From assembly GCA_038238185.1 (NCBI GenBank), contig JBBRXY010000009.1:1385-65384 (forward strand): a stretch of DNA of 64,000 bases, given 5' to 3'. Each line of letters begins with the position of its first letter. The stretch's first letter is position 1. Source of the stretch: Acidimicrobiales bacterium (GTDB lineage Bacteria; Actinomycetota; Acidimicrobiia; Acidimicrobiales; AC-14). This document shows positions 36,246 to 46,519 of the stretch, piece by piece. A program made the position numbers and the translations under genes. Below the pieces are notes generated by a model, which ran no database searches, was not told where the DNA came from, and saw only the letters and a list, made by a program, of their open reading frames with translations.

Positions 36246-36887
36246 TCACGGGTTAGCGGTGGCCAGGTACCGGATGCGGCCGGCGATGTTGACGGCGTGG
36301 TCGCCGAGACGCTCGTAGAACCGTCCGACGAGGGCCAGCTCGATAGCCACGGGGATGGAGACCGTCCCCGAAGCCAGCTCGGCCGTGAGGCTGATGTGCA
36401 CATCGTCGAGCTCGTCGTCGCTCTCCCGGAGCTGGGCGGCGGCGGTGCCGTCACGCTCGACGTAGGCCTCGGCCGTCGCCCGCCACATCTGCACCCCGAC
36501 CCGGCCCATCTGCTCGATGAGGCCCCGGATGCGTGGGGTGAGCTCGGGGGTAAGACCACGAGCCGCCCGCTGGGCGATGTGCTCGGTGAGGTCGCCGCTG
36601 CGCTCCAGCTCGGGCACGATGCGCAGGACGGACAGGAGGAAGCGCAGGTCTTCGGCCATGGGTGACTGCAGGGCGATGACGCTCTGAACGAGCTCCTCGA
36701 CCTCGACGTAAATGTCGTCGATGATCCGGTCGCGCGCGACCAGGGCACGGGCCGACTCCCGGTCACCGGCCAACAGGGCGTCGGTGGCGCCGGCCAGGCC
36801 TTCGCTGACGAGGGCGAACAGCTGCAGGACCTGAGCGTCGATCTGGTCGAGCTCACGGTGGAAGGCGACTCGTAGTTCCTCGGGCAC
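36246..36887 (-). CDS. phoU: Phosphate signalling complex protein PhoU
   Basis: Duplicated PhoU repeats (FHRELDQIDAQVLQLF...ARDRIIDDIYVEVEE and ESDDELDDVHISL...RFYERLGDHAVNIAGRIRYL). Confidence 0.9.
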   Translation of the reverse strand: MPEELRVAFHRELDQIDAQVLQLFALVSEGLAGATDALLAGDRESARALVARDRIIDDIYVEVEELVQSVIALQSPMAEDLRFLLSVLRIVPELERSGDLTEHIAQRAARGLTPELTPRIRGLIEQMGRVGVQMWRATAEAYVERDGTAAAQLRESDDELDDVHISLTAELASGTVSIPVAIELALVGRFYERLGDHAVNIAGRIRYLATANP

Positions 36888-36915: not shown

Positions 36916-38097
36916 TCAGTGCTCCAGGGGCTGGGCCAGCACGCGCCGGTTGAACCGCCGCAGGTGGAGGGCGAACACGCACATGAGCAGGCCGGTGGCG
37001 ACTGGCAGGAGCAGGGTTCTGCGGCTCGTCGAATGACCGAGGATCTCCACGGAATCGGCTCCGGCGTCGGAGGCGTTCTTCGGCCCGAAGGGCAGAGTGG
37101 CCGAGAAGGTGCCGTCGGGCAGCGTGACCCCCCCGGGCACGGCGATCTTGGGCGGGGCACCCCCCGCGGCGAGGAACGAGGACAGGTCGAGCGGGGCGGG
37201 AGAGCCAGTTGTGAACGCCCCGCCGGGTCCGGGAGCGGCGAGGGCACCCGGCCCGCCCGGTCCGCCGGCGGGCGATCCCGGCCCACCCGGTCCACCTGGC
37301 CCACCGGGCGATCCCGGCGGGGGGGGAACCGACACTGCGGCCCCCGCCGATGCCGCAATGGCCCGATTGCTGACCTCGCCGTTGCCGTCGGGCCGGACGG
37401 CCACCACGAGGTACTGGAACTGCCCACCCGACTGCGCCGTGGTGGTGTCGGTCCAGCTCACGGTCGACCCGTCCGGCGGTTGGGGAATGTTCGGCCCCAC
37501 GGGCTGGAAGCCCGACCCTCCCGGGCCCGTCCGCTGGACCTGGTAGCCCACCAGGTCGGGTTCGGTGTTTCGCGTCCACTTCAAGGTGACACTGCGGTCC
37601 GGATTGGAAGAGGCGGTCACGTTGGCCGGGGGAGCGGGAGCAACTTCGATGTTGAAGCTCGTGTCTTGCCTGGTGGTCACCGGGGCGTTGTTCAGGACGG
37701 CATCGAGGATCTTCCTGCCCGAGACCACGACCGCGACGTCGTAGGGGCCGTTGTAATCGAGCCCCTGGGCCGTGAACGAGAAGTGGGTGGCCTTCTGGCC
37801 CACCGGGTCGGCGCAGTCGCCGCACGACGGGGAGGTGCCGGGGTGCAGGCGGGAGGTCATGGTGATCTCGGCGCCGGTGATCCAATCGAGCTGGCCCGCC
37901 ATCTCCGCCGATCCCGACACCGTGGCGCTGGCGCCGTCGACCCCCGGCGGGTCGACATTGACGGTGAGGGCCGGGTCGGCCATCGCTGTGGTGGCCGGTG
38001 CTACCAAGGCCAGTGACGCGATCGCCGCCGTGGCCATGCCGGCCACCGCCCGGCGGACTCTGCCACCCTGCTCGGGCCGGGCCGCTCGGGCCCTCAT
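36916..38097 (-). CDS. Secreted FN3-domain surface protein with a Pro/Gly-rich linker and a C-terminal hydrophobic anchor
   Basis: Start at the ATG at 38097 in ATGA overlap with the sortase stop. Signal peptide (AVAGMATAAIASLALVAPATTAMA). FN3 domain (PPANVTASSNPDRSVTLKWTRNTEPDLVGYQVQR). PGGPGGPGGPGSPAGGPGGPG linker. Tail LLLPVATGLLMCVFALHLRRFNRR. Confidence 0.7.
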   Translation of the reverse strand: MRARAARPEQGGRVRRAVAGMATAAIASLALVAPATTAMADPALTVNVDPPGVDGASATVSGSAEMAGQLDWITGAEITMTSRLHPGTSPSCGDCADPVGQKATHFSFTAQGLDYNGPYDVAVVVSGRKILDAVLNNAPVTTRQDTSFNIEVAPAPPANVTASSNPDRSVTLKWTRNTEPDLVGYQVQRTGPGGSGFQPVGPNIPQPPDGSTVSWTDTTTAQSGGQFQYLVVAVRPDGNGEVSNRAIAASAGAAVSVPPPPGSPGGPGGPGGPGSPAGGPGGPGALAAPGPGGAFTTGSPAPLDLSSFLAAGGAPPKIAVPGGVTLPDGTFSATLPFGPKNASDAGADSVEILGHSTSRRTLLLPVATGLLMCVFALHLRRFNRRVLAQPLEH

Positions 38098-38726
38098 GCC
38101 TGTTTCAGGTCCTTGGAGAGTGTGGCCTTGATCACGAGGCGCTCGGCAGCCGAGCCCTTGGGGTGACAGGTGGTGAGGGTGAGCGTGCGGTTGCCCCCCC
38201 TGGCGTCGAGCACCGAGAGGTCGTTGGGAGTTACGACGAACGGTTCCTTGGACACCTGGTACACGCATCCGCCGACGGGCGTGTCGAGCTCGATGGTGGA
38301 TCCCACTTTGAGCCGGTCGACGTTGGCGAAGGGCTTGCCGAAGGTGGTGCGGTGCCCGGCGATGGCCACGTTGCCGACATCGCAGGGGAGCGCGGTACTC
38401 GGGTAGTGGCCGGCTCCGGCCCGCAGGGCGCTCGGCGTGGTCCCCTCGACCACGACCACGTCCACACCGATGTCGGGGATCTTGAGGCGGGTGAGGCTGT
38501 CACCCGTGCCTACCTTGCGGTCCTTGTAAGCCTGGCGGAGCTCGGGGCTGGCCAACTGCTTGCCGAGGCGGTCCTGGAGGCGGCCCTGCCAGAGGTTGCT
38601 GGCCAGCGGGTAGGCGACCAGCACCAGCCCGGCGAGGAGGAGCATGACGGACACCGCGGACAGCGTTCGCCGCAGCCACAGCTTGGAGCTGAGCAGCTCC
38701 GAGACGGATTGTCTTTCCTGGGTCAC
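38094..38726 (-). CDS. Class E sortase
   Basis: N-terminal TM anchor, AIAGHRTTFGKPF and the catalytic LTLTTCHP (TLxTC) motif. Length and motifs are typical of actinobacterial SrtE. Confidence 0.9.
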   Translation of the reverse strand: MTQERQSVSELLSSKLWLRRTLSAVSVMLLLAGLVLVAYPLASNLWQGRLQDRLGKQLASPELRQAYKDRKVGTGDSLTRLKIPDIGVDVVVVEGTTPSALRAGAGHYPSTALPCDVGNVAIAGHRTTFGKPFANVDRLKVGSTIELDTPVGGCVYQVSKEPFVVTPNDLSVLDARGGNRTLTLTTCHPKGSAAERLVIKATLSKDLKQA

Positions 38727-38843
38727 GGTCTTTCCCGGGTCACTAGAGAATCACGCACTGGAGATTCACGGTTGTTGGGCTCTCCGAGGGTACCGGACGA
38801 GCCCGCTTCAACTGGGCCGCTCAGAGCCGGAAATTCCGGACCT

Positions 38844-40082
38844 TCAGCGCCGGGCGCGGGTCACCCGACGGGTCACGAAGGCGGCGAGGATCAACATCAT
38901 CCCCATCGGCAGCCACGGTGCCTCGGCGCCGGTGCGGGCCAGCTCGGCGGCCTTGACCTCGGCCGGCGGGTTCTCCGGTGGGTTCACCGACTGGGTGATG
39001 AGGGCCTTGGCCCCGCCCACCGCAGACTCGGCGTGGGCCAGCTCGAGATTGATGCCACCGGAGACGCCTTTCAGCAGCTGGAGGCTCACGCCATCGGCCA
39101 CCGCCCCGACGGTGCCGTCAGGGTTCGAGATGGTGCGGCCCGCACCGATCGAGATGGTCGATTCGAGGAGGGTGCCGGGGAACAGCACGATGGGTGCGCC
39201 CAGGCCGACAGGCACGGTCAAACCGAGTACCTGGAGGGTGAGCAGGGAGGGGTCGAAGGAGGCTGCGCTCTGGCCCGTGGAGCGGTCGAACGTCGAGCTG
39301 GCCTTCGCCGACCCGAGCACGATGGAGATGAGCGGGGGGGCGCCCACCAGCCCGAGCCCGGGCAGCACGTCGATCTCGCCGCCCTGGGCCGTGGCCAGCG
39401 CCGTGACCTTGCCGGCGTCGGTGGTGACCGACGACGTGGTGTCGCCGACGTGGACCGTGGCCAGGTTGGTCACGTTCTCCAAGGCGTCCACCAGGCTGCT
39501 CACCGGGCTGTTCAGGTTGAGTCCCAGGTTCCCGAGCAGGGGATCGAGGGCGCCACCGAGCAATGGTTGCAGGGTGCTCGTGACCGTGCCGATGACCTGA
39601 TCGAGGACCGGCGTGAGGGCGTTGAGGATCGGCCGGAGCAGATCGAGGACGAGGTTGAGGAGGCCGACGTCGATGTCAGCGATGTTCGCCGCGGCAGCGG
39701 CCATGGGATTGCCCCCGTTGGCCGAGGCCGACGACTGGGAGCAGGCGAGGGCCACGGTGAGGATGCCCTGGATGGGCAGGTTCAGGGCACAGGCCTTGGG
39801 CGACGACTGGTCTTGGCCGGCCGTGGCGTCGGCCTTGCTGGTGGAGTCGGCGATCAGGCCCAGACCGGAGCCGTTGGCATGGGCCTCGGGCGTCGAGTTG
39901 GCCTGGGCATCGGTGGACCCGGCCGTGAGCTTGATCCCGAGCACGTCAAGATTGAGTGCCCGGGCCGCGGCACTTCCGGCGAAGGCTTCGGCGTTGTCGG
40001 CTGAGGCAGGTGTCGTGGCGAAGAGCCCGGACACGACCATGCTCGACAGTGCGAGAGCGCAGAGGCGCCCAGTAATTCTCAC
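38844..40082 (-). CDS. LAxTG (LARTG) cell-wall-anchored surface protein of unknown function
   Basis: GTG at 40082 preceded by GAGGGGGA. Signal peptide (LCALALSSMVVSGLFATTPASA). The C-terminal sorting signal LARTG plus TM helix plus RRVTRARR matches class E sortase substrates. Confidence 0.8.
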   Translation of the reverse strand: MRITGRLCALALSSMVVSGLFATTPASADNAEAFAGSAAARALNLDVLGIKLTAGSTDAQANSTPEAHANGSGLGLIADSTSKADATAGQDQSSPKACALNLPIQGILTVALACSQSSASANGGNPMAAAAANIADIDVGLLNLVLDLLRPILNALTPVLDQVIGTVTSTLQPLLGGALDPLLGNLGLNLNSPVSSLVDALENVTNLATVHVGDTTSSVTTDAGKVTALATAQGGEIDVLPGLGLVGAPPLISIVLGSAKASSTFDRSTGQSAASFDPSLLTLQVLGLTVPVGLGAPIVLFPGTLLESTISIGAGRTISNPDGTVGAVADGVSLQLLKGVSGGINLELAHAESAVGGAKALITQSVNPPENPPAEVKAAELARTGAEAPWLPMGMMLILAAFVTRRVTRARR

Positions 40083-40226
40083 GTTTTTTCGTCCCCCTCG
40101 GACCGGTGCCTTTGTCGGCCTGTGATGCGGGCATGAACAAGCCCGCCTCCACAAGATGGCGGAAGTGTCAGCCGCGTCACACAACAGATTCGCCGTCGTC
40201 GCCCGAACTCCTGCTTCAGGGCGGCA

Positions 40227-40622
40227 CTAGCGCTCTACGCGCATGGTGGCCGAGGCCTCGAGCGTCAGATCACCGAGGGCGGCGCCGACGAGGGGTACCC
40301 GGCTCGGCGCCCGGTACCGGACCTCGACCCGGACGTGGGTGCCCGGGCCACCGCGACCGCTGACGCCGACCTCGAGACGGTCGCCGTCGAGGTTTGAGCC
40401 GGCCAGCGCCACGCGGCGCACGGCGTCGGGGTTGGCTTCCACGGCCGCTTCCCGAGCCGCTTCTCGTGCGGCGTGGACCACGAGCACCTGGTCGCGTACG
40501 AGTAAGCCGACTTGCACTACGGCCAGGAGAACGAGCGCGACGAGGGGGAGGACGAGGGCCAGCTCCACTGCGGACTGGCCCCCGTCTCCCTGTCCCCTCG
40601 TTCTCAGGCCACCACGGCTCAC
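40227..40622 (-). CDS. TadE-like pseudopilin / pilus assembly protein
   Basis: GTG at 40622 in GTGA overlap with the flp stop. GGQSAVELALVLPLVALVLLAVVQVG is the TadE N-terminal motif. Confidence 0.7.
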   Translation of the reverse strand: MSRGGLRTRGQGDGGQSAVELALVLPLVALVLLAVVQVGLLVRDQVLVVHAAREAAREAAVEANPDAVRRVALAGSNLDGDRLEVGVSGRGGPGTHVRVEVRYRAPSRVPLVGAALGDLTLEASATMRVER

Positions 40623-40870
40623 TTCACCTTGCCGGTGATGGCATTGAGCACGGCATCGAACAGCTTGCCGATGAGATCGGACTTGGTGGCCCAGGCCACG
40701 AGGAGTAGGGCGATGGCCGCGGCGCCGAGGAGGACCAGGGCGTACTCGGCTGAGGTCTGCCCCCGCTCGTCGCGCCGCAGGCGTCGGGTGATCGTGGTGG
40801 CGAGGGTCGACGGTTGACCCGAGGCGAGGGCCAGGAGGGCCGTGTGGACGTGGATGTAGGCAGCGAGCAT
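40619..40870 (-). CDS. flp: Flp-family type IVb pilin (actinobacterial DUF4244-like)
   Basis: AAGGAG lies 6 nt before the ATG. Processing and assembly motif RG/QTSAEYALVLLGAAAIALLLV. Confidence 0.75.
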   Translation of the reverse strand: MLAAYIHVHTALLALASGQPSTLATTITRRLRRDERGQTSAEYALVLLGAAAIALLLVAWATKSDLIGKLFDAVLNAITGKVK

Positions 40871-40954
40871 GTGGTGCTCCTTCGTTTCGTTGGAAACTTC
40901 GATGGGGGAAAGCGCCGGGGGAGGGCGGGAGATGAAGCGTCAGGGGATGACGCG

Positions 40955-41818
40955 TCAGACGCGGAGCGAGCGAACGGCGCTGGCGATGAGGGGCGCCACG
41001 GTGAGCAGCCCGAAGGCGGGGAGCGTGCAGGTGACCAGAGGGAAGAGGAGTTTCACGGGGACCTTCCGGGCCGCCTCCTCGGCCCGGCGGCGGTGATCGC
41101 GCCGAACCTCGTCGGCCAGGCGTTCGAGGCTGGTCACGAGCGGGGCGCCGTAGCGTTCGGAGGCGACGAGCGCCCCCACCAGGGGACGGACTGCCTCGCC
41201 GGCCCGAGCCGGGAGGTCGTCGAGCGCGTCGGCGAGGCGCCGCCCGAGGGCCACCTCCTGGGTGACCCGGCGCAACTCCGCGGTGAGCGGCCCCGACCCG
41301 CGGCGGGCCACGTGGCTCACCGCCAGCCCGACGGTGAGGCCGGCGCCCACAGCGAGGGTGAGGAGGTCGACCACGTCGGGAAGGTCTGCCGCCAGTGTGG
41401 CCAGGCGACGGCGCTCTCGGCGTCCGGCGCCGATGCCGGGCACGCCCCACGCCACCAGGGCGGCGACCGGCGAGGCCAGCGGGACGACGGGCACCACGAC
41501 GGCCGCCACGGCCACCGCCGTCCCGAGCCGGCGGGCCCGGGTCGGCGACGGTGGCTGGTGGACCCGTCGCAGCAACCAGGCGCCGAGGCGTTCGAGGAGG
41601 CATCCCGCTGCGTGCGCCAGCCCGGTAGGGCCGGCGACGGTGATACCGGCGGCCCGGCTGCTCGTCGGCGTGGTTCGGCCGGTGAGGGTCCGCACCCGTT
41701 CCGGCGCGGGACGCCATCGGAGCGACGCGGCCACGACCACTGCGGCCCATGCGCCGGGAAGCAGGGCACCCCACCCGGCTGCGAGGATGCCGACCGAGGC
41801 GGTCACCGTCGCCGTCAC
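40955..41818 (-). CDS. tadC: TadC-like type II secretion system F-family membrane protein
   Basis: GTG at 41818 in GTGA overlap with the tadB stop. T2SSF domain (LPDVVDLLTLAVGAGLTVGLAV...ERYGAPLVTSLERLADEVR...KVPVKLLFPLVTCTLPAFGLLTVAP). Confidence 0.75.
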   Translation of the reverse strand: MTATVTASVGILAAGWGALLPGAWAAVVVAASLRWRPAPERVRTLTGRTTPTSSRAAGITVAGPTGLAHAAGCLLERLGAWLLRRVHQPPSPTRARRLGTAVAVAAVVVPVVPLASPVAALVAWGVPGIGAGRRERRRLATLAADLPDVVDLLTLAVGAGLTVGLAVSHVARRGSGPLTAELRRVTQEVALGRRLADALDDLPARAGEAVRPLVGALVASERYGAPLVTSLERLADEVRRDHRRRAEEAARKVPVKLLFPLVTCTLPAFGLLTVAPLIASAVRSLRV

Positions 41819-42915
41819 GGGTTCACCCGGGAAAGGCGGTTCATCCACATCCACCCGAGGCCGTCGAGGACACCGCCGGCGGCGAGCAGGGCGAACCCGG
41901 CACCGGTGTGGAAGAGGAAGACGGCGGTCCGGGGATCGGTGGTGGCGGCGAAGGCCCCGAACCCGAGCGGGGCCAGGCTGATCACCAGTGCGGAGATGCG
42001 CGCTTGGGACGACAGGGCGCGGACCTCGGCGAGCACGGCCAGGCGGTCGCGAAGGGTGGTGGCCACTCCGTCGACGGCCTGGGCTTGGGCGCCACCGGTC
42101 TCCGCGCCCAGGCAGAGGGCGGCCACGGCCAGGCGGACACCCGGGAGGGGGCGACGGTCGGCCAGGTGGTCGAGGGCCTGCACGAGCGGTACTCCCCGCT
42201 CGGCCTGGGTCGACACCCGTTCGAGCTCCTGGCCGAGGGGGCCTGGTGTCCGGGCCGCGGCCTCGCCGACCGCCTGGCGGAGTGATGCGCCGGTGCGCTG
42301 CGCCCGGGCCACCGCCTCGAGCGCCCCCGGCAGGGCGGATTCCACCCGTGCGTCGCCCCGGCCCCGGCGGGCCCGGAGGACGACGATGGGCCCTGCGATG
42401 GCGAGCGCGGTGCTGCCGAGGGCGAGGGTCGGTCCGGCAGCGACGAGGACGACGAGGCTCGACACCGGGACGCCGGCACACCACAGTGTCCAGGCCGCGG
42501 CCGGATCCACGTCGAGGTCGGCGGCCACCAGCGCGGGACCCAGCCACCGGGGCCCGCCTCCCCAGCGGTTCTGGTCGGGCTTCTGGTCGTCCTGACGACC
42601 AGAAACCCGACCAGTTCGGGATGGCGCGCCGTGCAGGTGGTCTGAGTCGTGGGTCGGCAACCGCCGGACGACGGTGGTGCGACGGGCGGCACCGAGAGCG
42701 AGGCGCACGGCCAGACAGAGTGCCGCCACCAACGCACCGCTCGCCAACGCGCCGGTGACGGTGTGGAGGCCGGCCACTGCGTTCAGGCCACGCAGGCCGG
42801 CCACTGCGTTCAGGCCACGCAGGCCGGCCACTGCGTTCAGGCCACGCAGGCCGGCCACTGCGTTCAGGCCACGCAGGCCGGCCACTGCGTTCAGGCCACG
42901 CAGGCCGGTGGTCAT
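41815..42915 (-). CDS. tadB: TadB-like type II secretion system F-family membrane protein with an N-terminal (GLRGLNAVA)x5 repeat
   Basis: ATG at 42915 in ATGA overlap with the tadA stop. T2SSF domain (LPGALEAVARAQRTGASLRQAV...ERGVPLVQALDHLADR...LSSQARISALVISLAPLGF). Confidence 0.75.
   Translation of the reverse strand: MTTGLRGLNAVAGLRGLNAVAGLRGLNAVAGLRGLNAVAGLRGLNAVAGLHTVTGALASGALVAALCLAVRLALGAARRTTVVRRLPTHDSDHLHGAPSRTGRVSGRQDDQKPDQNRWGGGPRWLGPALVAADLDVDPAAAWTLWCAGVPVSSLVVLVAAGPTLALGSTALAIAGPIVVLRARRGRGDARVESALPGALEAVARAQRTGASLRQAVGEAAARTPGPLGQELERVSTQAERGVPLVQALDHLADRRPLPGVRLAVAALCLGAETGGAQAQAVDGVATTLRDRLAVLAEVRALSSQARISALVISLAPLGFGAFAATTDPRTAVFLFHTGAGFALLAAGGVLDGLGWMWMNRLSRVNP
42768..42910. 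repeat. Perfect 27-bp tandem repeat, 5 full copies plus a partial one (unit ggccggccactgcgttcaggccacgca)
   Basis: Read directly. Copies start at 42768, 42795, 42822, 42849 and 42876. In frame (9 codons) within the tadB 5' end. Confidence 0.95.
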
Positions 42916-44150
42916 GGCTCCAACCACGTGGTATCCGGCGGAATGAAGCCCGGGGCCCGGCCCTGTCGCTCCGGGAGAGCGACCACCGACCTGGCACCGG
43001 CCAGCCGCCGGGTGCGGCCGCCGGGCCCTTCCGGGCCGGGCACACGCCTTCGTCGACCATCGTCGCCCCCGCGCCGGTCGGTGGCCTGGCGCACCTCGGC
43101 CACCTCCACCACTTGGCGGGAACCGCCGGGGGCCCGTGCCACCTGGACGACGAGGTCGAGGGCGGACTCGAGTTGGGTGCGCACGGCGTCGAGAGGAAGG
43201 TCGACGTCGCCCATCAGGATCATCGTCTCGAGGCGCCGCAGGGCGTCGACCGGGCTGTTGGCGTGGCAGGTCGACAGCGAACCTTCGTGGCCGGTGTTCA
43301 TGGCCTGGAGCATGTCGAGGGCCTCGGGGCCCCGGACCTCGCCGACGAGGATGCGATCGGGTCGCATGCGCAGGGCGTTGCGGACCAGGGTGCGGACGGA
43401 GACGGCTCCTGCTCCCTCGGCGTTGGCCGGGCGAGCCTCCAGGCGCACGACGTGGTCGGCGGGAAGGCGCAGCTCGGCCGCATCCTCCACGGTGACGACC
43501 CGTTCCCCGGGTGGGATGTGGCCGCCCAGGGCATTGAGCAGCGTGGTCTTTCCGGCACCGGTGCCGCCCGACACCAGGATGTTGAACCGGGCCCCGACCG
43601 CCCAGGCCAGCAGGGCGGCGACGCTCGGTGCGGCGAAGGCGCTCAGCGGCACGGGCCGGGTCCCGAAGCGGCGGATGGTGAGGCAGGGCCCGTCGACGGC
43701 CAGGGGCGGTACGACGGCGTTCACCCGGGAGCCATCGGGCAGGCGAGCATCCACGAGGGGCGCAGACCGGTCGACCCGGAGCCCGAGGGGGCCCACCACC
43801 CTCTCGATGAGGTGCTCGATGGCGGCGGCGTCGAGGTCGAGGGGAATGCGTTCGAGGCGGCCGGCCCGCTCCACCCAGACCCTTTCAGGTCCGTTGACCA
43901 TGACCTCGGTGACGGTGGGGTCGGCCAGGAGCGGCTCCAGCGGCCCGAGCCCCTGCACCTCGGCAAGGACCTCCTCGACCACTCGGGCCCGCTGGGCGGC
44001 GCCGAGCAGTGGAGCCTCCTCGCCCACGAGGACGGCCAACCGTTCGGGGAGCACCGCACCGACACCCTCGGCCAGCAAACGGGCGTGCACCCGGGACCGA
44101 ACCGAGACATCATCCCGCTCGGTCACGGGACAGGACCCGACGAGGCTCAC
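42912..44150 (-). CDS. tadA: TadA/CpaF-family pilus assembly ATPase
   Basis: Walker A (ILVSGGTGAGKTTLLNAL), Asp and Walker B boxes (RVVTVEDAAEL, RPDRILVGEVRG) and His box (AMNTGHEGSLSTCHAN). Start set at the GTG at 44150; an in-frame ATG at 44219 is an alternative. Confidence 0.92.
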   Translation of the reverse strand: MSLVGSCPVTERDDVSVRSRVHARLLAEGVGAVLPERLAVLVGEEAPLLGAAQRARVVEEVLAEVQGLGPLEPLLADPTVTEVMVNGPERVWVERAGRLERIPLDLDAAAIEHLIERVVGPLGLRVDRSAPLVDARLPDGSRVNAVVPPLAVDGPCLTIRRFGTRPVPLSAFAAPSVAALLAWAVGARFNILVSGGTGAGKTTLLNALGGHIPPGERVVTVEDAAELRLPADHVVRLEARPANAEGAGAVSVRTLVRNALRMRPDRILVGEVRGPEALDMLQAMNTGHEGSLSTCHANSPVDALRRLETMILMGDVDLPLDAVRTQLESALDLVVQVARAPGGSRQVVEVAEVRQATDRRGGDDGRRRRVPGPEGPGGRTRRLAGARSVVALPERQGRAPGFIPPDTTWLEP

Positions 44151-44284
44151 GGCTGGACCGTCGCCCGCAGGGCGTCGACTCCGCGCTCCCGACACGGGTG
44201 CCCCGTGGGGAGATGGCATGTGGGCCCGCCGCCGACAAGGCGGTGGGAGGGGCCGGCCACGGGACAGGACCCGACGAGGCTCAT
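44147..44284 (-). CDS. Possible 45-codon coupling ORF between the tadZ-like gene and tadA (MSLVGSCPVAGPSHRLVGGGPTCHLPTGHPCRERGVDALRATVQP)
   Basis: Its ATG at 44284 overlaps the upstream stop (ATGA) and its TGA overlaps the tadA GTG (GTGA). Its first 9 codons are a 26-nt duplicate of the tadA start. It may be a duplication scar rather than a gene. Confidence 0.3.
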   Translation of the reverse strand: MSLVGSCPVAGPSHRLVGGGPTCHLPTGHPCRERGVDALRATVQP

Positions 44285-44928
44285 GCCGCGTCCCGGAGCG
44301 ATCGCTCCAGCGCCCGGGGAACGCGACGGGACAGCAACCCGGCGTCGACGGCACGGGCCACCGCCGGGTCGTAGGCGATCTCCGCCCGTACCGGCACCCC
44401 GAGCACCTCCTCGATATCGCGCCGGCCGAGGGAGCGGCCCTCCTCGCCGACCAGGATTACTCCTGTCGGTCGCAGTGGCGCGGCCAGGGCCCGGCGCAGG
44501 GCCAGGTAGCACGGGCGCAGCACCAGCAGGGACACGGTCGCCCCGGCGGCCACCGCCAGCGCCACACCGTCTTCGGCGCGACCGCAGTCGGCCACGACCG
44601 GTCGACGCTCGACGGTGAGGGCGGCGGCGAGCGCTTGAGGCCTCCCCGACACGGCCGACCCCGTGGAGCCCCGGGCCAGGAGCCGGAGGCCGGGGGCGGC
44701 ATCCAGCTCGAGGCGACTCAGGGCATCGTCGGGCACCTCCGACCCGGCCGCCAACCAGTCGGACAGGCCGGGTCCGTCGGGTTCGGGAATCCCGAGGGCG
44801 GCCGGGACGTCACCCGCCAGGTCGACGAGGAGAGCGGCCCCTTTGGTGCTGGCGAGGATCAGGCTGAGGGCAGCCGAGACGACGGTGGTTCCGCTGCCAC
44901 CCTTGGGCGACCAGCAGGCAATGAGCAT
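44281..44928 (-). CDS. ParA/MinD-like protein with a deviant Walker A (TadZ/CpaE- or Ssd-like)
   Basis: MLIACWSPKGGSGTTVVSAALSL (the KGGxGKT lysine is replaced by T). It occupies the first position of the tad cluster. Confidence 0.65.
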   Translation of the reverse strand: MLIACWSPKGGSGTTVVSAALSLILASTKGAALLVDLAGDVPAALGIPEPDGPGLSDWLAAGSEVPDDALSRLELDAAPGLRLLARGSTGSAVSGRPQALAAALTVERRPVVADCGRAEDGVALAVAAGATVSLLVLRPCYLALRRALAAPLRPTGVILVGEEGRSLGRRDIEEVLGVPVRAEIAYDPAVARAVDAGLLSRRVPRALERSLRDAA

Positions 44929-45402: not shown

Positions 45403-45498
45403 GGAGGTGTCCGGGCGCCTGGTGGGCCCCCCCGCCTTCAAAGCGGGTGGGACGGGTGATCCCCGTCCGGCGGGTTCGATTCCCGTCCACCTCCGCCA
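45403..45498 (+). tRNA. selC: tRNA-Sec (selenocysteine, anticodon TCA)
   Basis: Anticodon arm CCCGC-CTTCAAA-GCGGG. Long variable arm GGACGGG-TGATC-CCCGTCC. T arm GCGGG-TTCGATT-CCCGT. Extended acceptor GGAGGTG(T)/(C)CACCTCC, G discriminator and encoded CCA. 96 nt. The D arm could not be folded confidently by hand. Confidence 0.8.
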
Positions 45499-45580: not shown

Positions 45581-46519
45581 TTAGACCGCCAGGAGGTCTC
45601 GCGCTCCGGTGTCGCTGCTCGGGTGGCGGAGCTTGGACATGGCGCGGGCCTCGATCTGGCGGATGCGCTCGCGGGTCAGGTTGAAGTGCTCGCCGACCTC
45701 TTCGAGGGTACGGGGCTCGCCGCGGTCGAGACCGAAGCGCAGGCGCAGGATCTCGCGCTCACGTTCGTCGAGCGGCCCGAGGAGCTTGGCGATCTCGTCG
45801 GGCAGGAGGGCGGTGGCGGCCACCTCGAACGGCGACTCGGCTGACCGGTCTTCGACCACGTCGCCCAGCTCGGCGTCGCCGTCCTCGCGGAGAGGTTCGG
45901 AGAGCGACAGGGGTTCGGCGGCGAAACGCAGGGCCTCGGTGACCTTGTCCTCGGGCATCTCGACTTCGGCGGCCAACTCCGACAGGGTGGCCGGACGACC
46001 CAGCTTGAGCTCGAGACGGGCGCGGGCCTTCTGGAGACGGGCCAGCGTGTCGCCTGCGTGCACAGGCAGCCGGATGGTGCGCCCGGTGTTGGCGATGCCC
46101 CTGGTGATGGCCTGGCGGATCCACCAGGTGGCGTAGGTGGAGAACTTGAAGCCCTTGCGCCAGTCGAACTTCTCGACGGCGTGCATGAGGCCCAGGTTTC
46201 CCTCCTGAATGAGGTCGAGGAGGGGCAGGCCGGAGGCCTGGTACTTCTTGGCGATGGAGACCACCAGCCGCAGGTTGGACTTCACAAAGGTCGACTGGGC
46301 CAGCACACCCTCGGAGGCCACCCGGCGCAGTTCGCGTCGTTTGGCCTGCGTGAGCCCGGTGCCCTCGACGTCGGCCTGGCAACGGGCGGCGTTGCCCGCC
46401 TCGATGGCCTTGGCCAGGCGGACCTCGTCGTCCTTGGTGAGCAGGGGGTACTGCCCGATGTCGGTCAGGTAAAGACGAACAAGATCTTCCTCGTCGCGCT
46501 CTACTCGCTCCTTCGGCAA
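45581..46519 (-). CDS. RNA polymerase sigma-70 factor, group 1/2 (RpoD/SigB-like, no region 1.1)
   Basis: DLVRLYLTDIGQYPLLTKDDEVRLAK, region 2 (NLRLVVSIAKKYQASGLPLLDLIQEGNLGLMHAVEKFDWRKGFKFSTYATWWIRQAI) and region 4 (LEEVGEHFNLTRERIRQIEARAMSKLR). Confidence 0.95.
   Translation of the reverse strand: MPKERVERDEEDLVRLYLTDIGQYPLLTKDDEVRLAKAIEAGNAARCQADVEGTGLTQAKRRELRRVASEGVLAQSTFVKSNLRLVVSIAKKYQASGLPLLDLIQEGNLGLMHAVEKFDWRKGFKFSTYATWWIRQAITRGIANTGRTIRLPVHAGDTLARLQKARARLELKLGRPATLSELAAEVEMPEDKVTEALRFAAEPLSLSEPLREDGDAELGDVVEDRSAESPFEVAATALLPDEIAKLLGPLDEREREILRLRFGLDRGEPRTLEEVGEHFNLTRERIRQIEARAMSKLRHPSSDTGARDLLAV

What the first reader, a model, noticed from the sequence alone, without database searches (positions are those of the whole stretch)
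36916..44928. Tad/Flp pilus locus contiguous with a class E sortase, its LARTG substrate and an FN3 surface protein
Seen: ten same-strand genes with minimal spacing.
- The order is ssd/tadZ-like, mini-ORF, tadA, tadB, tadC and flp. The junctions from the ssd/tadZ-like gene through tadC are 4-nt ATGA/GTGA overlaps, and flp follows tadC after an 84-nt gap.
- flp then overlaps the tadE-like gene (GTGA).
- 144 nt downstream lies a 412-aa protein with a LARTG sorting signal.
- 117 nt further lies a class E sortase (TLTTCHP).
- An ATGA overlap links the sortase to an FN3 protein with a PG-rich stalk.

Established: Flp pili are assembled non-covalently by the Tad machinery. Class E sortases anchor LAxTG proteins to the actinobacterial wall. 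The two systems are normally described as independent.

Inference: the sortase substrates may be pilus-associated adhesins or a wall-anchored base/receptor for the Flp fibre, giving a hybrid adhesion module. The FN3 protein ends in LLLPVATG plus TM plus RR, which is not a canonical LAxTG/LPxTG signal.
Basis: partly seen in the sequence, partly recalled or inferred. Interest (0 to 1): 0.6.

Follow-up and report, generated by a model that had tools for sequence, protein, structure and literature searches.

The report
Tad pilus locus beside sortase cassette
In this uncultured Acidimicrobiales bacterium a Tad/Flp pilus operon is followed by a three-gene cassette (an undescribed wall-anchored protein, its own sortase and a membrane protein with FN3 domains); the pairing is old and widely inherited, but each part also occurs without the other, so they look like neighbours, not one machine.

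Summary
All ten minus-strand ORFs, the 4-nt overlaps and the 84, 144 and 117-nt gaps are as described.

The genome is an Acidimicrobiales MAG.

- **Conserved order.** The order sigma, ssd, tadA, tadB, tadC, flp, tadE, LAxTG protein, sortase, FN3 recurs in 15 of 25 family genomes and 35 of 53 species loci.
- **Independence.** In 151 order-level genomes, 62 have the tad locus without the sortase and 12 have the sortase without tad (odds ratio 2.0, p = 0.10).
- **Same site.** In tad-less genomes the cassette still lies just downstream of the same sigma gene. The unrelated sigma gene is as syntenic as the cassette.
- **Substrate.** The LARTG protein is a genuine sortase substrate of an unnamed family. 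It has been lost from several genomes that keep sortase and FN3.
- **Sortase.** It is a second, divergent class-E-like enzyme. A canonical class E sortase lies elsewhere in the genome.
- **FN3 protein.** It is a bitopic membrane protein, not a sortase substrate.
- **Mini-ORF.** It comes from a strain-specific 134-nt insertion.

My best reading is two separable surface modules sharing one conserved locus. A direct pilus link is not excluded but has no support. The scan reached the same reading before on another Acidimicrobiia genome.

The parts
44281..44928 (-). ssd/TadZ-like ParA/MinD-type ATPase, 215 aa, ATPase domain only (SPKGGSGTT)
   Evidence: Pfam CbiA scores 30.3 bits against a cut-off of 25.4. 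TIGR03815 (Ssd) scores 35 bits against a cut-off of 154 and covers model positions 114-331 only. Orthologues of the same length precede tadA in relatives.
44147..44284 (-). 45-codon ORF created by a 134-nt insertion that repeats the first 30 nt of tadA; not a conserved gene
   Evidence: There is a direct repeat at 44120-44149 and 44254-44283, 97% identical and 134 nt apart. The segment is absent from G001, G002, G003 and G008, where tadA abuts ssd. It has no family match.
42912..44150 (-). tadA/cpaF secretion ATPase
   Evidence: Pfam T2SSE matches at 1.4e-58. TIGR03819, the TadA family, scores 324 bits against a cut-off of 373.
41815..42915 (-). tadB platform protein, with a 27-nt x5 in-frame tandem repeat (GLRGLNAVA) at its 5' end (42767-42908)
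   Evidence: Pfam T2SSF matches at 1.2e-11. The repeat family is D1. Matches in relatives start at residue 38 or later, so they lack the repeat.
40955..41818 (-). tadC platform protein
   Evidence: Pfam T2SSF matches at 1.4e-17.
40619..40870 (-). Flp prepilin (leader, then ERG|QTSAEYALVLLG)
   Evidence: Pfam DUF4244 scores 33.8 bits against a cut-off of 27; Flp_Fap scores 19.9 bits, below its cut-off. The mature part is almost invariant in more than 50 orthologues.
40227..40622 (-). TadE-like minor pilin
   Evidence: Pfam TadE scores 47.2 bits against a cut-off of 22.9. NF041390 (TadE_Rv3655c) scores 34.9 bits against a cut-off of 40.
40083..40226 (-). 144-nt spacer with a conserved non-coding block (GGCGAA, about 17 nt, TGGTAnnCAC; upstream AGGAAC-like box), promoter-like
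   Evidence: The alignment of seven relatives shows the block. A strict form of the motif occurs in 9 of 39 LAxTG-gene upstream regions against 0.4% of control windows, but the window's own spacer does not match it. No sigma-70 consensus site or terminator was found by the scan, and there is no consensus RNA structure.
38844..40082 (-). 412-aa secreted beta-rich protein with a cell-wall sorting signal (LARTG, hydrophobic stretch, RRVTRARR); unnamed family
   Evidence: It has no Pfam, NCBIfam or PDB sequence match. The signal peptide and the motif LA[RK]TG (also LPRTG, LVRTG, LAFTG) are conserved in 17 orthologues. The AF2 model has pLDDT 78.9; Foldseek TM-scores are at most 0.16. The family has 528 clusters at 50% identity.
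38094..38726 (-). dedicated class-E-like sortase, 210 aa, N-terminal membrane anchor, AGHR / TLTTCHP / ERL catalytic motifs
   Evidence: Pfam Sortase matches at 1.6e-29. NCBIfam class E scores 124 bits against a cut-off of 160 and is the best class. The nearest PDB sequences are class D and class E sortases. It occurs mostly as a single-copy orthologue in 50 of 151 genomes of the order.
36916..38097 (-). bitopic membrane protein: signal peptide, two FN3-like beta-sandwich domains, Pro/Gly-rich disordered stalk, C-terminal TM helix; start overlaps the sortase stop (ATGA)
   Evidence: Pfam fn3 scores 21.8 bits, below its cut-off. The AF2 model shows domains 44-150 and 158-257 with pLDDT above 90 and a helix at 359-387. 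Foldseek finds tandem FN3 pairs with probability 1.0. Relatives have long cytoplasmic tails.
45581..46519 (-). flank: sigma-70 family factor (regions 1.2, 2, 3, 4), syntenic upstream neighbour
   Evidence: Pfam matches regions 1.2, 2, 3 and 4. The gene is 85-99% identical and lies upstream of tad or of the cassette in nearly all loci.
45403..45498 (+). flank: tRNA-Sec
   Evidence: ARAGORN.
36246..36887 (-). flank: phoU, downstream neighbour in the closer relatives
   Evidence: Pfam PhoU matches at 3.5e-33. The synteny is seen.

Best explanation
Two separable cell-surface modules occupy one conserved chromosomal site, between a sigma-70-family gene with tRNA-Sec and phoU.

**Module 1** is ssd, tadA, tadB, tadC, flp and tadE. 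It is an actinobacterial Tad/Flp (type IVc) pilus locus of the M. tuberculosis Rv3654c-Rv3660c type. The prepilin peptidase is encoded elsewhere in the genome.

**Module 2** is a sortase cassette.
- The 412-aa beta-rich protein is exported by Sec.
- It is cut in its LA[RK]TG motif by the neighbouring dedicated class-E-like sortase and joined to peptidoglycan. This step is inferred from the sorting signal.
- The FN3 protein is translated from a start that overlaps the sortase stop.
- It stays in the membrane through a C-terminal helix and holds two FN3-like domains out on a Pro/Gly stalk of about 90 residues.
- It is the sortase's constant companion; its role is unknown.

The adjacency is inherited synteny. 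At most it reflects a shared surface or adhesion programme. It is not a physical pilus-sortase hybrid: either module is dispensable for the other.
For: **Anatomy.** Gene content and junctions are as described.

**The sorting signal is real.** The motif, the hydrophobic stretch and the basic tail are conserved in 17 orthologues down to 38% identity.

**The sortase is a dedicated second copy.** The genome also has a canonical class E sortase (192 bits against a cut-off of 160) and a class F sortase. At least five other LAxTG candidate proteins lie elsewhere in the genome.

**Synteny.** The full gene order is found in 15 of 25 family genomes and in 35 of 53 species loci.

**Independence.**
- Of 151 genomes of the order, tadE is present in 100, the sortase in 50, both in 38, tad only in 62 and sortase only in 12. 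Four families are consistent at 2 of 2 genomes. The odds ratio is 2.0 with Fisher p = 0.10.
- In tad-less genomes the cassette still lies behind the same sigma gene.
- Genomes that keep the cassette have a best tadA match of only 36-42% identity, against 60-90% for orthologues.
- G012 has tadE abutting phoU.
- G004, in the same genus, has tadE abutting the STAS gene, with a sortase-FN3 pair on another contig.

**The substrate gene is often lost.** It is missing, with sortase and FN3 retained, in G002, G008, G014, G024, G034, G083, G103, G149 and G163.

**The module boundary.** A non-overlapping spacer of 110-280 nt with a conserved promoter-like block separates the modules. Junctions within each module are tight.

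**FN3 is not a substrate.** Its motif lies inside the predicted TM helix, and relatives have long cytoplasmic tails.
Against: - Whenever tadE and the sortase are on one contig they are adjacent, in 34 of 34 genomes. Only one separation was seen (G004). Selection for co-location or co-transcription therefore cannot be excluded.
- All genes are co-directional and no canonical terminator was found in the 144-nt spacer, so read-through from the tad operon is possible.
- The promoter-like motif has not been validated, and the window's own spacer does not match its strict form.
- Presence and absence counts come from MAGs, some of them incomplete, and are not corrected for phylogeny.
Confidence: 0.6

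Rival explanations
1. Functional coupling without physical contact. The cassette is an accessory of the Tad operon. It is transcribed with it by read-through, or under one regulator, so that pili and a wall-anchored adhesin are displayed together as one attachment programme.
For: - The genes are co-directional and no terminator was detected in the spacer.
- The two modules are adjacent in 34 of 34 same-contig cases when both are present.
- The order is kept over deep divergence, with LAxTG protein identity down to about 31%.
Against: - Co-occurrence is weak (odds ratio 2.0, p = 0.10).
- 62 genomes have tad only and 12 have the cassette only.
- The sigma gene is equally syntenic, so conserved order is not specific evidence.
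- A conserved promoter-like block lies in front of the LAxTG gene, also at solitary paralogues L072-L074.
Confidence: 0.25
2. Direct structural link. The wall-anchored beta-rich protein, with or without the FN3 protein, forms a peptidoglycan-level collar, base, conduit or receptor for the Flp fibre in a monoderm envelope.
For: - The position is immediately after tadE, where other Tad loci carry tadF/tadG-type accessory genes.
- The protein is built of long antiparallel strands, and its weak Foldseek hits are all outer-membrane barrels.
- Monoderm Tad systems have no known wall-spanning component. This rests on general knowledge, not on a test here.
Against: - Foldseek TM-scores are only 0.08-0.16, so there is no real structural match.
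- Orthologous tad loci lack the protein in 62 genomes and in at least 9 further genomes that keep the sortase.
- The protein and its sortase persist where the tad locus is gone.
- Its signal peptide is of Sec type, not prepilin type.
Confidence: 0.1
3. The sortase acts on the pilins themselves, cross-linking or anchoring Flp or TadE covalently.
For: Flp ends in ...NAITGKVK, faintly like an xTG motif, and this ending is conserved within the family.
Against: - No hydrophobic segment or charged tail follows the motif.
- The ending is absent (…QLLSRVR) in L061, L067, L068 and L086, which do have the sortase. It is therefore not correlated with sortase presence.
- TadE has no such motif.
Confidence: 0.03

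Closest known systems
Actinobacterial Tad/Flp locus of the Mycobacterium tuberculosis Rv3654c-Rv3660c type (ssd, tadA, tadB, tadC, flp, tadE, tadF); gene names recalled from memory
   Same: It has the same gene order from ssd to tadE. The same NCBIfam and Pfam models are the best hits: TIGR03815 (Ssd), TIGR03819 (TadA family), DUF4244 (Flp) and NF041390 (TadE_Rv3655c). The prepilin peptidase is encoded elsewhere in the genome.
   Different: - The ssd-like protein is only 215 aa and has the ATPase domain alone.
- There is no tadF-like gene.
- Most scores lie below the equivalog cut-offs.
- The locus is followed by a sortase cassette, which I do not recall being described for the mycobacterial locus. 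The three literature searches turned up no such linkage.
Class E sortases and their LAxTG substrates (Streptomyces coelicolor SrtE1/SrtE2 with chaplins; Actinoplanes missouriensis SrtE, PMC13251363; Bifidobacterium housekeeping class E sortase, PMC8603203)
   Same: It has the sortase fold with the His/Cys/Arg motifs and TLTTC. Class E is the best-scoring class. PDB relatives include 5cuw (SrtE1) and 5go5. The neighbouring substrate carries LA[RK]TG.
   Different: - It scores below the class E cut-off (124 bits against 160).
- It is not the housekeeping enzyme: the genome has a canonical class E sortase at 192 bits.
- It is paired with one neighbouring substrate and an overlapping FN3 membrane-protein gene.
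Dedicated sortase-substrate gene pairs (for example the class B SrtB-IsdC pair in the isd locus; general knowledge)
   Same: A second, specialised sortase is encoded next to its presumed single substrate.
   Different: - The sortase class and the motif differ.
- The substrate family has no known domain.
- The substrate gene is often lost while the sortase stays.
Cutibacterium acnes plasmids carrying a tad locus and, in an insertion, a SrtE-family sortase next to a PT-repeat surface protein (PMC5696575)
   Same: A tad locus and a class E sortase with a surface protein lie on one replicon.
   Different: There the two are separate regions of a plasmid, and the sortase lies in a variable insertion. 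Here they abut on the chromosome and are inherited vertically across many families.

Membership tests
Tad/Flp (type IVc) pilus locus | TadA/CpaF secretion ATPase with a T2SSE domain | tested here: met
   PF00437 matches at 1.4e-58. TIGR03819 scores 324 bits, below its cut-off of 373.
Tad/Flp (type IVc) pilus locus | Two T2SSF platform proteins (TadB, TadC) | tested here: met
   PF00482 matches at 1.2e-11 and 1.4e-17.
Tad/Flp (type IVc) pilus locus | Flp prepilin with the G/xxxxEY processing motif and a hydrophobic mature N-terminus | tested here: met
   The sequence reads ERG|QTSAEYALVLLGAAAIALL. DUF4244 scores above its cut-off and Flp_Fap below. The mature part is conserved in orthologues.
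Tad/Flp (type IVc) pilus locus | TadE/TadF-type minor pilins | tested here: met
   TadE (PF07811) scores 47.2 bits. No tadF-like gene was found.
Tad/Flp (type IVc) pilus locus | TadZ/CpaE/Ssd ParA-like protein with an N-terminal receiver-like domain | tested here: inconclusive
   Only the ATPase half is present: 215 aa, TIGR03815 positions 114-331, 35 bits against a cut-off of 154.
Tad/Flp (type IVc) pilus locus | Prepilin peptidase (TadV, Peptidase_A24) in the genome | tested here: met
   There is one PF01478 match, on contig C52 and outside the locus.
Tad/Flp (type IVc) pilus locus | Pili are actually assembled | not testable with these tools
   The organism is an uncultured MAG.
Class E sortase | Sortase domain with the catalytic His, the TLxTC Cys and the Arg | tested here: met
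   PF04203 matches at 1.6e-29. AGHR, TLTTCHP and ERL are conserved in all orthologues.
Class E sortase | Score above the curated class E model cut-off (NF033747, 160 bits) | tested here: not met
   It scores 124.2 bits. Class E is still the best class, with class D next at 92.8 bits. The genome's C62 sortase scores 192.3 bits.
Class E sortase | LAxTG-type substrate | tested here: met
   The neighbouring gene ends in LARTG, and orthologues carry LA[RK]TG, LPRTG, LVRTG or LAFTG. This is sequence evidence only; cleavage was not shown.
Class E sortase | Housekeeping role for many substrates | tested here: not met
   It is a second copy beside a canonical class E enzyme. It has been lost from many genomes of the order.
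Cell-wall sorting signal substrate (LARTG protein) | N-terminal Sec signal, then C-terminal motif, hydrophobic stretch and basic tail | tested here: met
   These features are conserved in 17 of 17 orthologues.
Cell-wall sorting signal substrate (FN3 protein) | A conserved LPxTG/LAxTG motif outside the membrane, followed by a short charged tail | tested here: not met
   LPVATG degenerates to VPVAAG and VSLAFA in relatives. It lies inside the predicted TM helix 359-387. Cytoplasmic tails in relatives add more than 200 alignment columns.
Sortase-assembled (covalent) pili | Class C sortase plus two or more pilin substrates carrying a pilin motif | tested here: not met
   Class C is not the best-scoring class. 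There is a single substrate gene, it has no pilin-domain match, and no YPK motif can be read in its sequence.

The most novel reading that the evidence does not exclude
In monoderm Acidimicrobiales the sortase cassette is a wall-level accessory of the Tad pilus. The covalently anchored beta-rich protein, held in place with help from the FN3 membrane protein, would form a collar, docking point or partner for the Flp fibre where it crosses the peptidoglycan. That would be the first functional link between a sortase and a type IV pilus. Lineages lacking one module would have replaced or abandoned that function.
Probability: 0.1. Interest if true: 0.75.

Novelty: new member of a known kind. Interest (0 to 1): 0.35.

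Why it matters
**What is new here**
- The work defines an unnamed family of wall-anchored proteins. It has 528 clusters at 50% identity and no Pfam, NCBIfam or PDB relative.
- The family travels with its own divergent class-E-like sortase and a constant FN3 membrane partner.
- The cassette is present in about a third of sampled Acidimicrobiales, a large, mostly uncultured actinobacterial order.

**A cautionary case.** Strong, deep conservation of gene order did not survive a presence/absence test or a synteny control with an unrelated neighbour. It therefore cannot be read as evidence for a hybrid machine.

**If the minority reading were right**, it would bear on an open question: how type IV pili pass the thick wall of monoderm bacteria.

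Tried and rejected
- **Promoter and terminator scan.** It found no sigma-70 site and nothing relevant.
- **Spacer folding.** Folding of the three spacers gave z-scores of -0.8, 0.4 and -2.4 and no terminator-like hairpin with a U tract. RNAalifold on the tadE-LAxTG spacer gave no consensus structure.
- **LAxTG protein model.** Foldseek against PDB gave only outer-membrane barrels at TM-scores of 0.08-0.16, so I rejected them as a real match. A profile search of PDB sequences found only a designed helical bundle at E = 0.006. Pfam scans of all 39 family members found nothing.
- **Flp as a substrate.** I rejected the idea that Flp's C-terminal AITGKVK is a sortase signal.
- **FN3 tail as a sorting signal.** Rejected.
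- **Shared promoter motif.** A single motif across all clades was not found. The strict AGGAAC-N-GGCGAA form covers 9 of 39 upstream regions, and other clades have different boxes.
- **Literature.** Searches for a sortase linked to a tad locus, or for sortases in Acidimicrobiia, found no description of this arrangement.

Full report
**1. What is in the sequence**

The region is 69-75% G+C and all the genes lie on the minus strand. Reading 5' to 3' on that strand:

| Gene | Coordinates | Evidence |
|---|---|---|
| ParA/MinD-type ATPase (ssd-like) | 44281-44928 | Ssd is the best NCBIfam hit, but only its C-terminal half |
| 45-codon ORF | 44147-44284 | no family match |
| tadA | 42912-44150 | T2SSE 1.4e-58 |
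| tadB | 41815-42915 | T2SSF |
| tadC | 40955-41818 | T2SSF |
| flp | 40619-40870 | DUF4244/Flp, ERG\|QTSAEY |
| tadE | 40227-40622 | PF07811 |
| 412-aa LARTG protein | 38844-40082 | Sec signal peptide; ends LARTG, hydrophobic stretch, RRVTRARR |
| sortase | 38094-38726 | AGHR, TLTTCHP |
| FN3 protein | 36916-38097 | fn3, below cut-off |

- The flanks are a sigma-70-family gene and tRNA-Sec upstream, and phoU followed by a STAS/anti-sigma-kinase pair downstream.

**2. Corrections of detail**

- **Mini-ORF.** It sits in a 134-nt insertion whose first 30 nt repeat the start of tadA. Four genomes of the same genus lack the insertion and have tadA abutting ssd. It is a strain-specific by-product and not a gene of the system.
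- **Sortase class.** Class E is the best match, but the score of 124 bits is under the curated cut-off of 160.
- **Other sortases.** The genome has four sortase-domain ORFs. One, on contig C62, is a canonical class E enzyme (192 bits). One, on C25, is class F (193 bits). The tad-linked sortase is therefore a second, specialised copy.
- **Other substrates.** Six candidate LAxTG-ending proteins were seen in the six-frame scan, including this one and a 6135-aa protein.
- **Other tad loci.** The genome also has further tad-like loci on C131, C133 and C70 and one prepilin peptidase on C52.

**3. The three cassette proteins**

*The LARTG protein*
- It has no Pfam, NCBIfam or PDB sequence relative. 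This holds for the window protein, for 39 family members scanned one by one and for a profile search of PDB sequences.
- Its relatives are all from Acidimicrobiales or Acidimicrobiia MAGs and are annotated as hypothetical or as 'LPXTG anchor' proteins.
- A profile search of 1.84 billion representatives finds 528 clusters.
- In 17 orthologues down to 38% identity the following are conserved: the signal peptide, two cysteines, a VADGVSLQLLKG...LELAHAE block and the sorting signal. The motif reads LA[RK]TG, or once each LPRTG, LVRTG and LAFTG.
- The AF2 model (pLDDT 78.9, pTM 0.67) is a meander of long strands with a helical hairpin at 141-203.
- Foldseek returns only outer-membrane barrels at TM-scores of 0.08-0.16. 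I do not count these as a match.

*The FN3 protein*
- It models as two beta-sandwich domains (44-150 and 158-257, pLDDT above 90). A disordered Pro/Gly stalk (270-358) and one helix (359-387) follow.
- It matches tandem FN3 pairs in PDB.
- Its LLLPVATG lies inside that helix.
- It degenerates in relatives to VPVAAG or VSLAFA.
- It is followed in many relatives by cytoplasmic tails that add more than 200 alignment columns.
- It is a bitopic membrane protein, not a sortase substrate.

**4. Is the linkage conserved?**

Yes, among relatives.

*In the family (25 genomes):*
- 15 show tad, LAxTG protein and sortase (plus FN3 where the contig continues) on one contig.
- Four have tadE, sortase and FN3 with the LAxTG gene missing: G002, G008, G014 and G024.
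- G012 has tadE directly followed by phoU.
- G004, of the same genus, has tadE followed by the STAS gene, and a sortase-FN3 pair (71% and 34% identity) on another contig.

*Across one genome per species, among the 53 loci that encode the LAxTG family:*
- 35 have the full order.
- 6 have the cassette with no tad genes in at least 3 kb upstream.
- 6 have a solitary LAxTG-family gene.
- 6 are too short to tell.

In two of the tad-less cases the upstream genes are dnaK, grpE, dnaJ, hspR and clpB.

**5. Is the linkage functional?**

I searched the same 151 genomes of the order (more than 80 GTDB families) with tadE, the sortase and the LAxTG profile.

| | sortase present | sortase absent |
|---|---|---|
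| tadE present | 38 | 62 |
| tadE absent | 12 | 39 |

- The odds ratio is 2.0 and Fisher p = 0.10, without phylogenetic correction.
- The sortase-only state is consistent within families: f30, f32, f49 and f62 are each 2 of 2.
- When both are present on one contig they are always adjacent (34 of 34). The LAxTG gene lies between them in 29 cases and is absent in 5.
- That alone would suggest selection for linkage.
- However, in the tad-less genomes the cassette lies at the same site, 1-5 kb downstream of the same sigma gene and tRNA-Sec, with only a HAD hydrolase gene between.
- In three genomes that keep the cassette, the best TadA relative is 36-42% identical, against 60-90% for orthologues.
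- One locus therefore exists in three states: sigma-tad-cassette, sigma-tad and sigma-cassette.
- The sigma gene, which nobody would call a pilus part, is as faithfully syntenic as the cassette.
- Conserved order here therefore measures low rearrangement at this site and not functional dependence.

**6. The boundary between the modules**

- Within each module the genes overlap or are tightly spaced.
- Between tadE and the next gene there is always a spacer: 110-280 nt before the LAxTG gene, and 58-445 nt before the sortase where the LAxTG gene is gone.
- In the closer clades the spacer holds a conserved block, GGCGAA then about 17 nt then TGGTAnnCAC, with an AGGAAC-like box upstream.
- A strict form of that motif occurs in 9 of 39 LAxTG-gene upstream regions, including three solitary paralogues, against 0.4% of random windows. 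The window's own spacer does not match the strict form.
- Other clades carry other conserved boxes.
- This looks like the cassette's own promoter or operator, but it is not validated. No terminator was found either, so read-through cannot be excluded.

**7. Verdict**

- The most likely account (about 0.6) is two separable surface modules sharing a conserved chromosomal site: a Tad/Flp pilus locus of the mycobacterial Rv3654c-Rv3660c type, and a dedicated sortase cassette.
- The wall-anchoring step is inferred from the conserved sorting signal and the neighbouring sortase. It has not been shown.
- The role of the FN3 partner is unknown. It is the sortase's most constant companion and is translationally coupled to it, so it is the best target for a first experiment.
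- Co-regulation as one adhesion programme (about 0.25) and a direct wall-level role for the pilus (about 0.1) remain open.
- Sortase action on the pilins is very unlikely.
- Literature searches found no description of a sortase cassette attached to a tad locus or of sortases in Acidimicrobiia. The nearest case is a C. acnes plasmid with both features in separate regions.
- An earlier follow-up in this scan, on another Acidimicrobiia genome, reached the same reading. My counts qualify its 'always followed': 62 of 100 tad-bearing genomes of the order lack the sortase.

Noticed in passing
window 42767-42908 (minus strand, 5' end of tadB): There is a perfect 27-nt x5 in-frame tandem repeat encoding (GLRGLNAVA)5 right after the tadB start. 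tblastn matches in relatives begin at residue 38 or later, so they appear to lack it. It is a recent strain-specific expansion or an assembly effect.
   Followed up: partly
window 44120-44283: A 134-nt insertion between ssd and tadA begins with a 30-nt copy of the tadA start and creates the coupled 45-codon ORF. Four same-genus genomes lack it.
   Followed up: yes
window 40083-40226 and the homologous spacers in L042-L089: A conserved non-coding block lies upstream of the LAxTG gene: an AGGAAC-like box, then GGCGAA, then about 17 nt, then TGGTAnnCAC. It is also present before the solitary LAxTG paralogues L072-L074. It may be an ECF-type or other promoter.
   Followed up: partly
G002 (L110), G008 (L112), G014 (L114), G024 (L134), G034 (L116) and G083, G103, G149, G163: The LAxTG substrate gene is cleanly missing (58-445 nt between tadE and the sortase), while the sortase and FN3 genes stay intact. 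No LAxTG-family gene was found elsewhere in the five family genomes. This sortase must therefore have another substrate or role there.
   Followed up: partly
FN3 orthologues, alignment A4 columns 500-777: Distant orthologues of the FN3 protein carry long acidic, Pro-rich cytoplasmic tails ending in a conserved EIEVxEVVSPxRRRLxRxGSR motif, which hints at a cytoplasmic partner. The window protein has almost no tail.
   Followed up: no
own genome, contig C25 8114-10362 (L040): A class F sortase (193 bits) lies next to a 505-aa protein with an internal duplication that ends in LPVAG, a hydrophobic stretch and a basic tail. It is a second sortase-substrate pair in the genome.
   Followed up: no
own genome, contig C22 18796-37838: An open frame of 6135 aa ends in an LAFTG sorting signal and is followed by a 218-aa LAFTG protein. 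These are a giant wall-anchored protein and a small companion.
   Followed up: no
window 45403-45498 (+): tRNA-Sec lies between the sigma gene and ssd. The same tRNA sequence accompanies the sigma gene in the tad-less loci L122-L128.
   Followed up: partly
window 40619-40870 and its orthologues: The mature Flp pilin is nearly invariant across genera (QxSAEYALVLLGAAAxALL...). The leader peptide varies freely in length and sequence.
   Followed up: no
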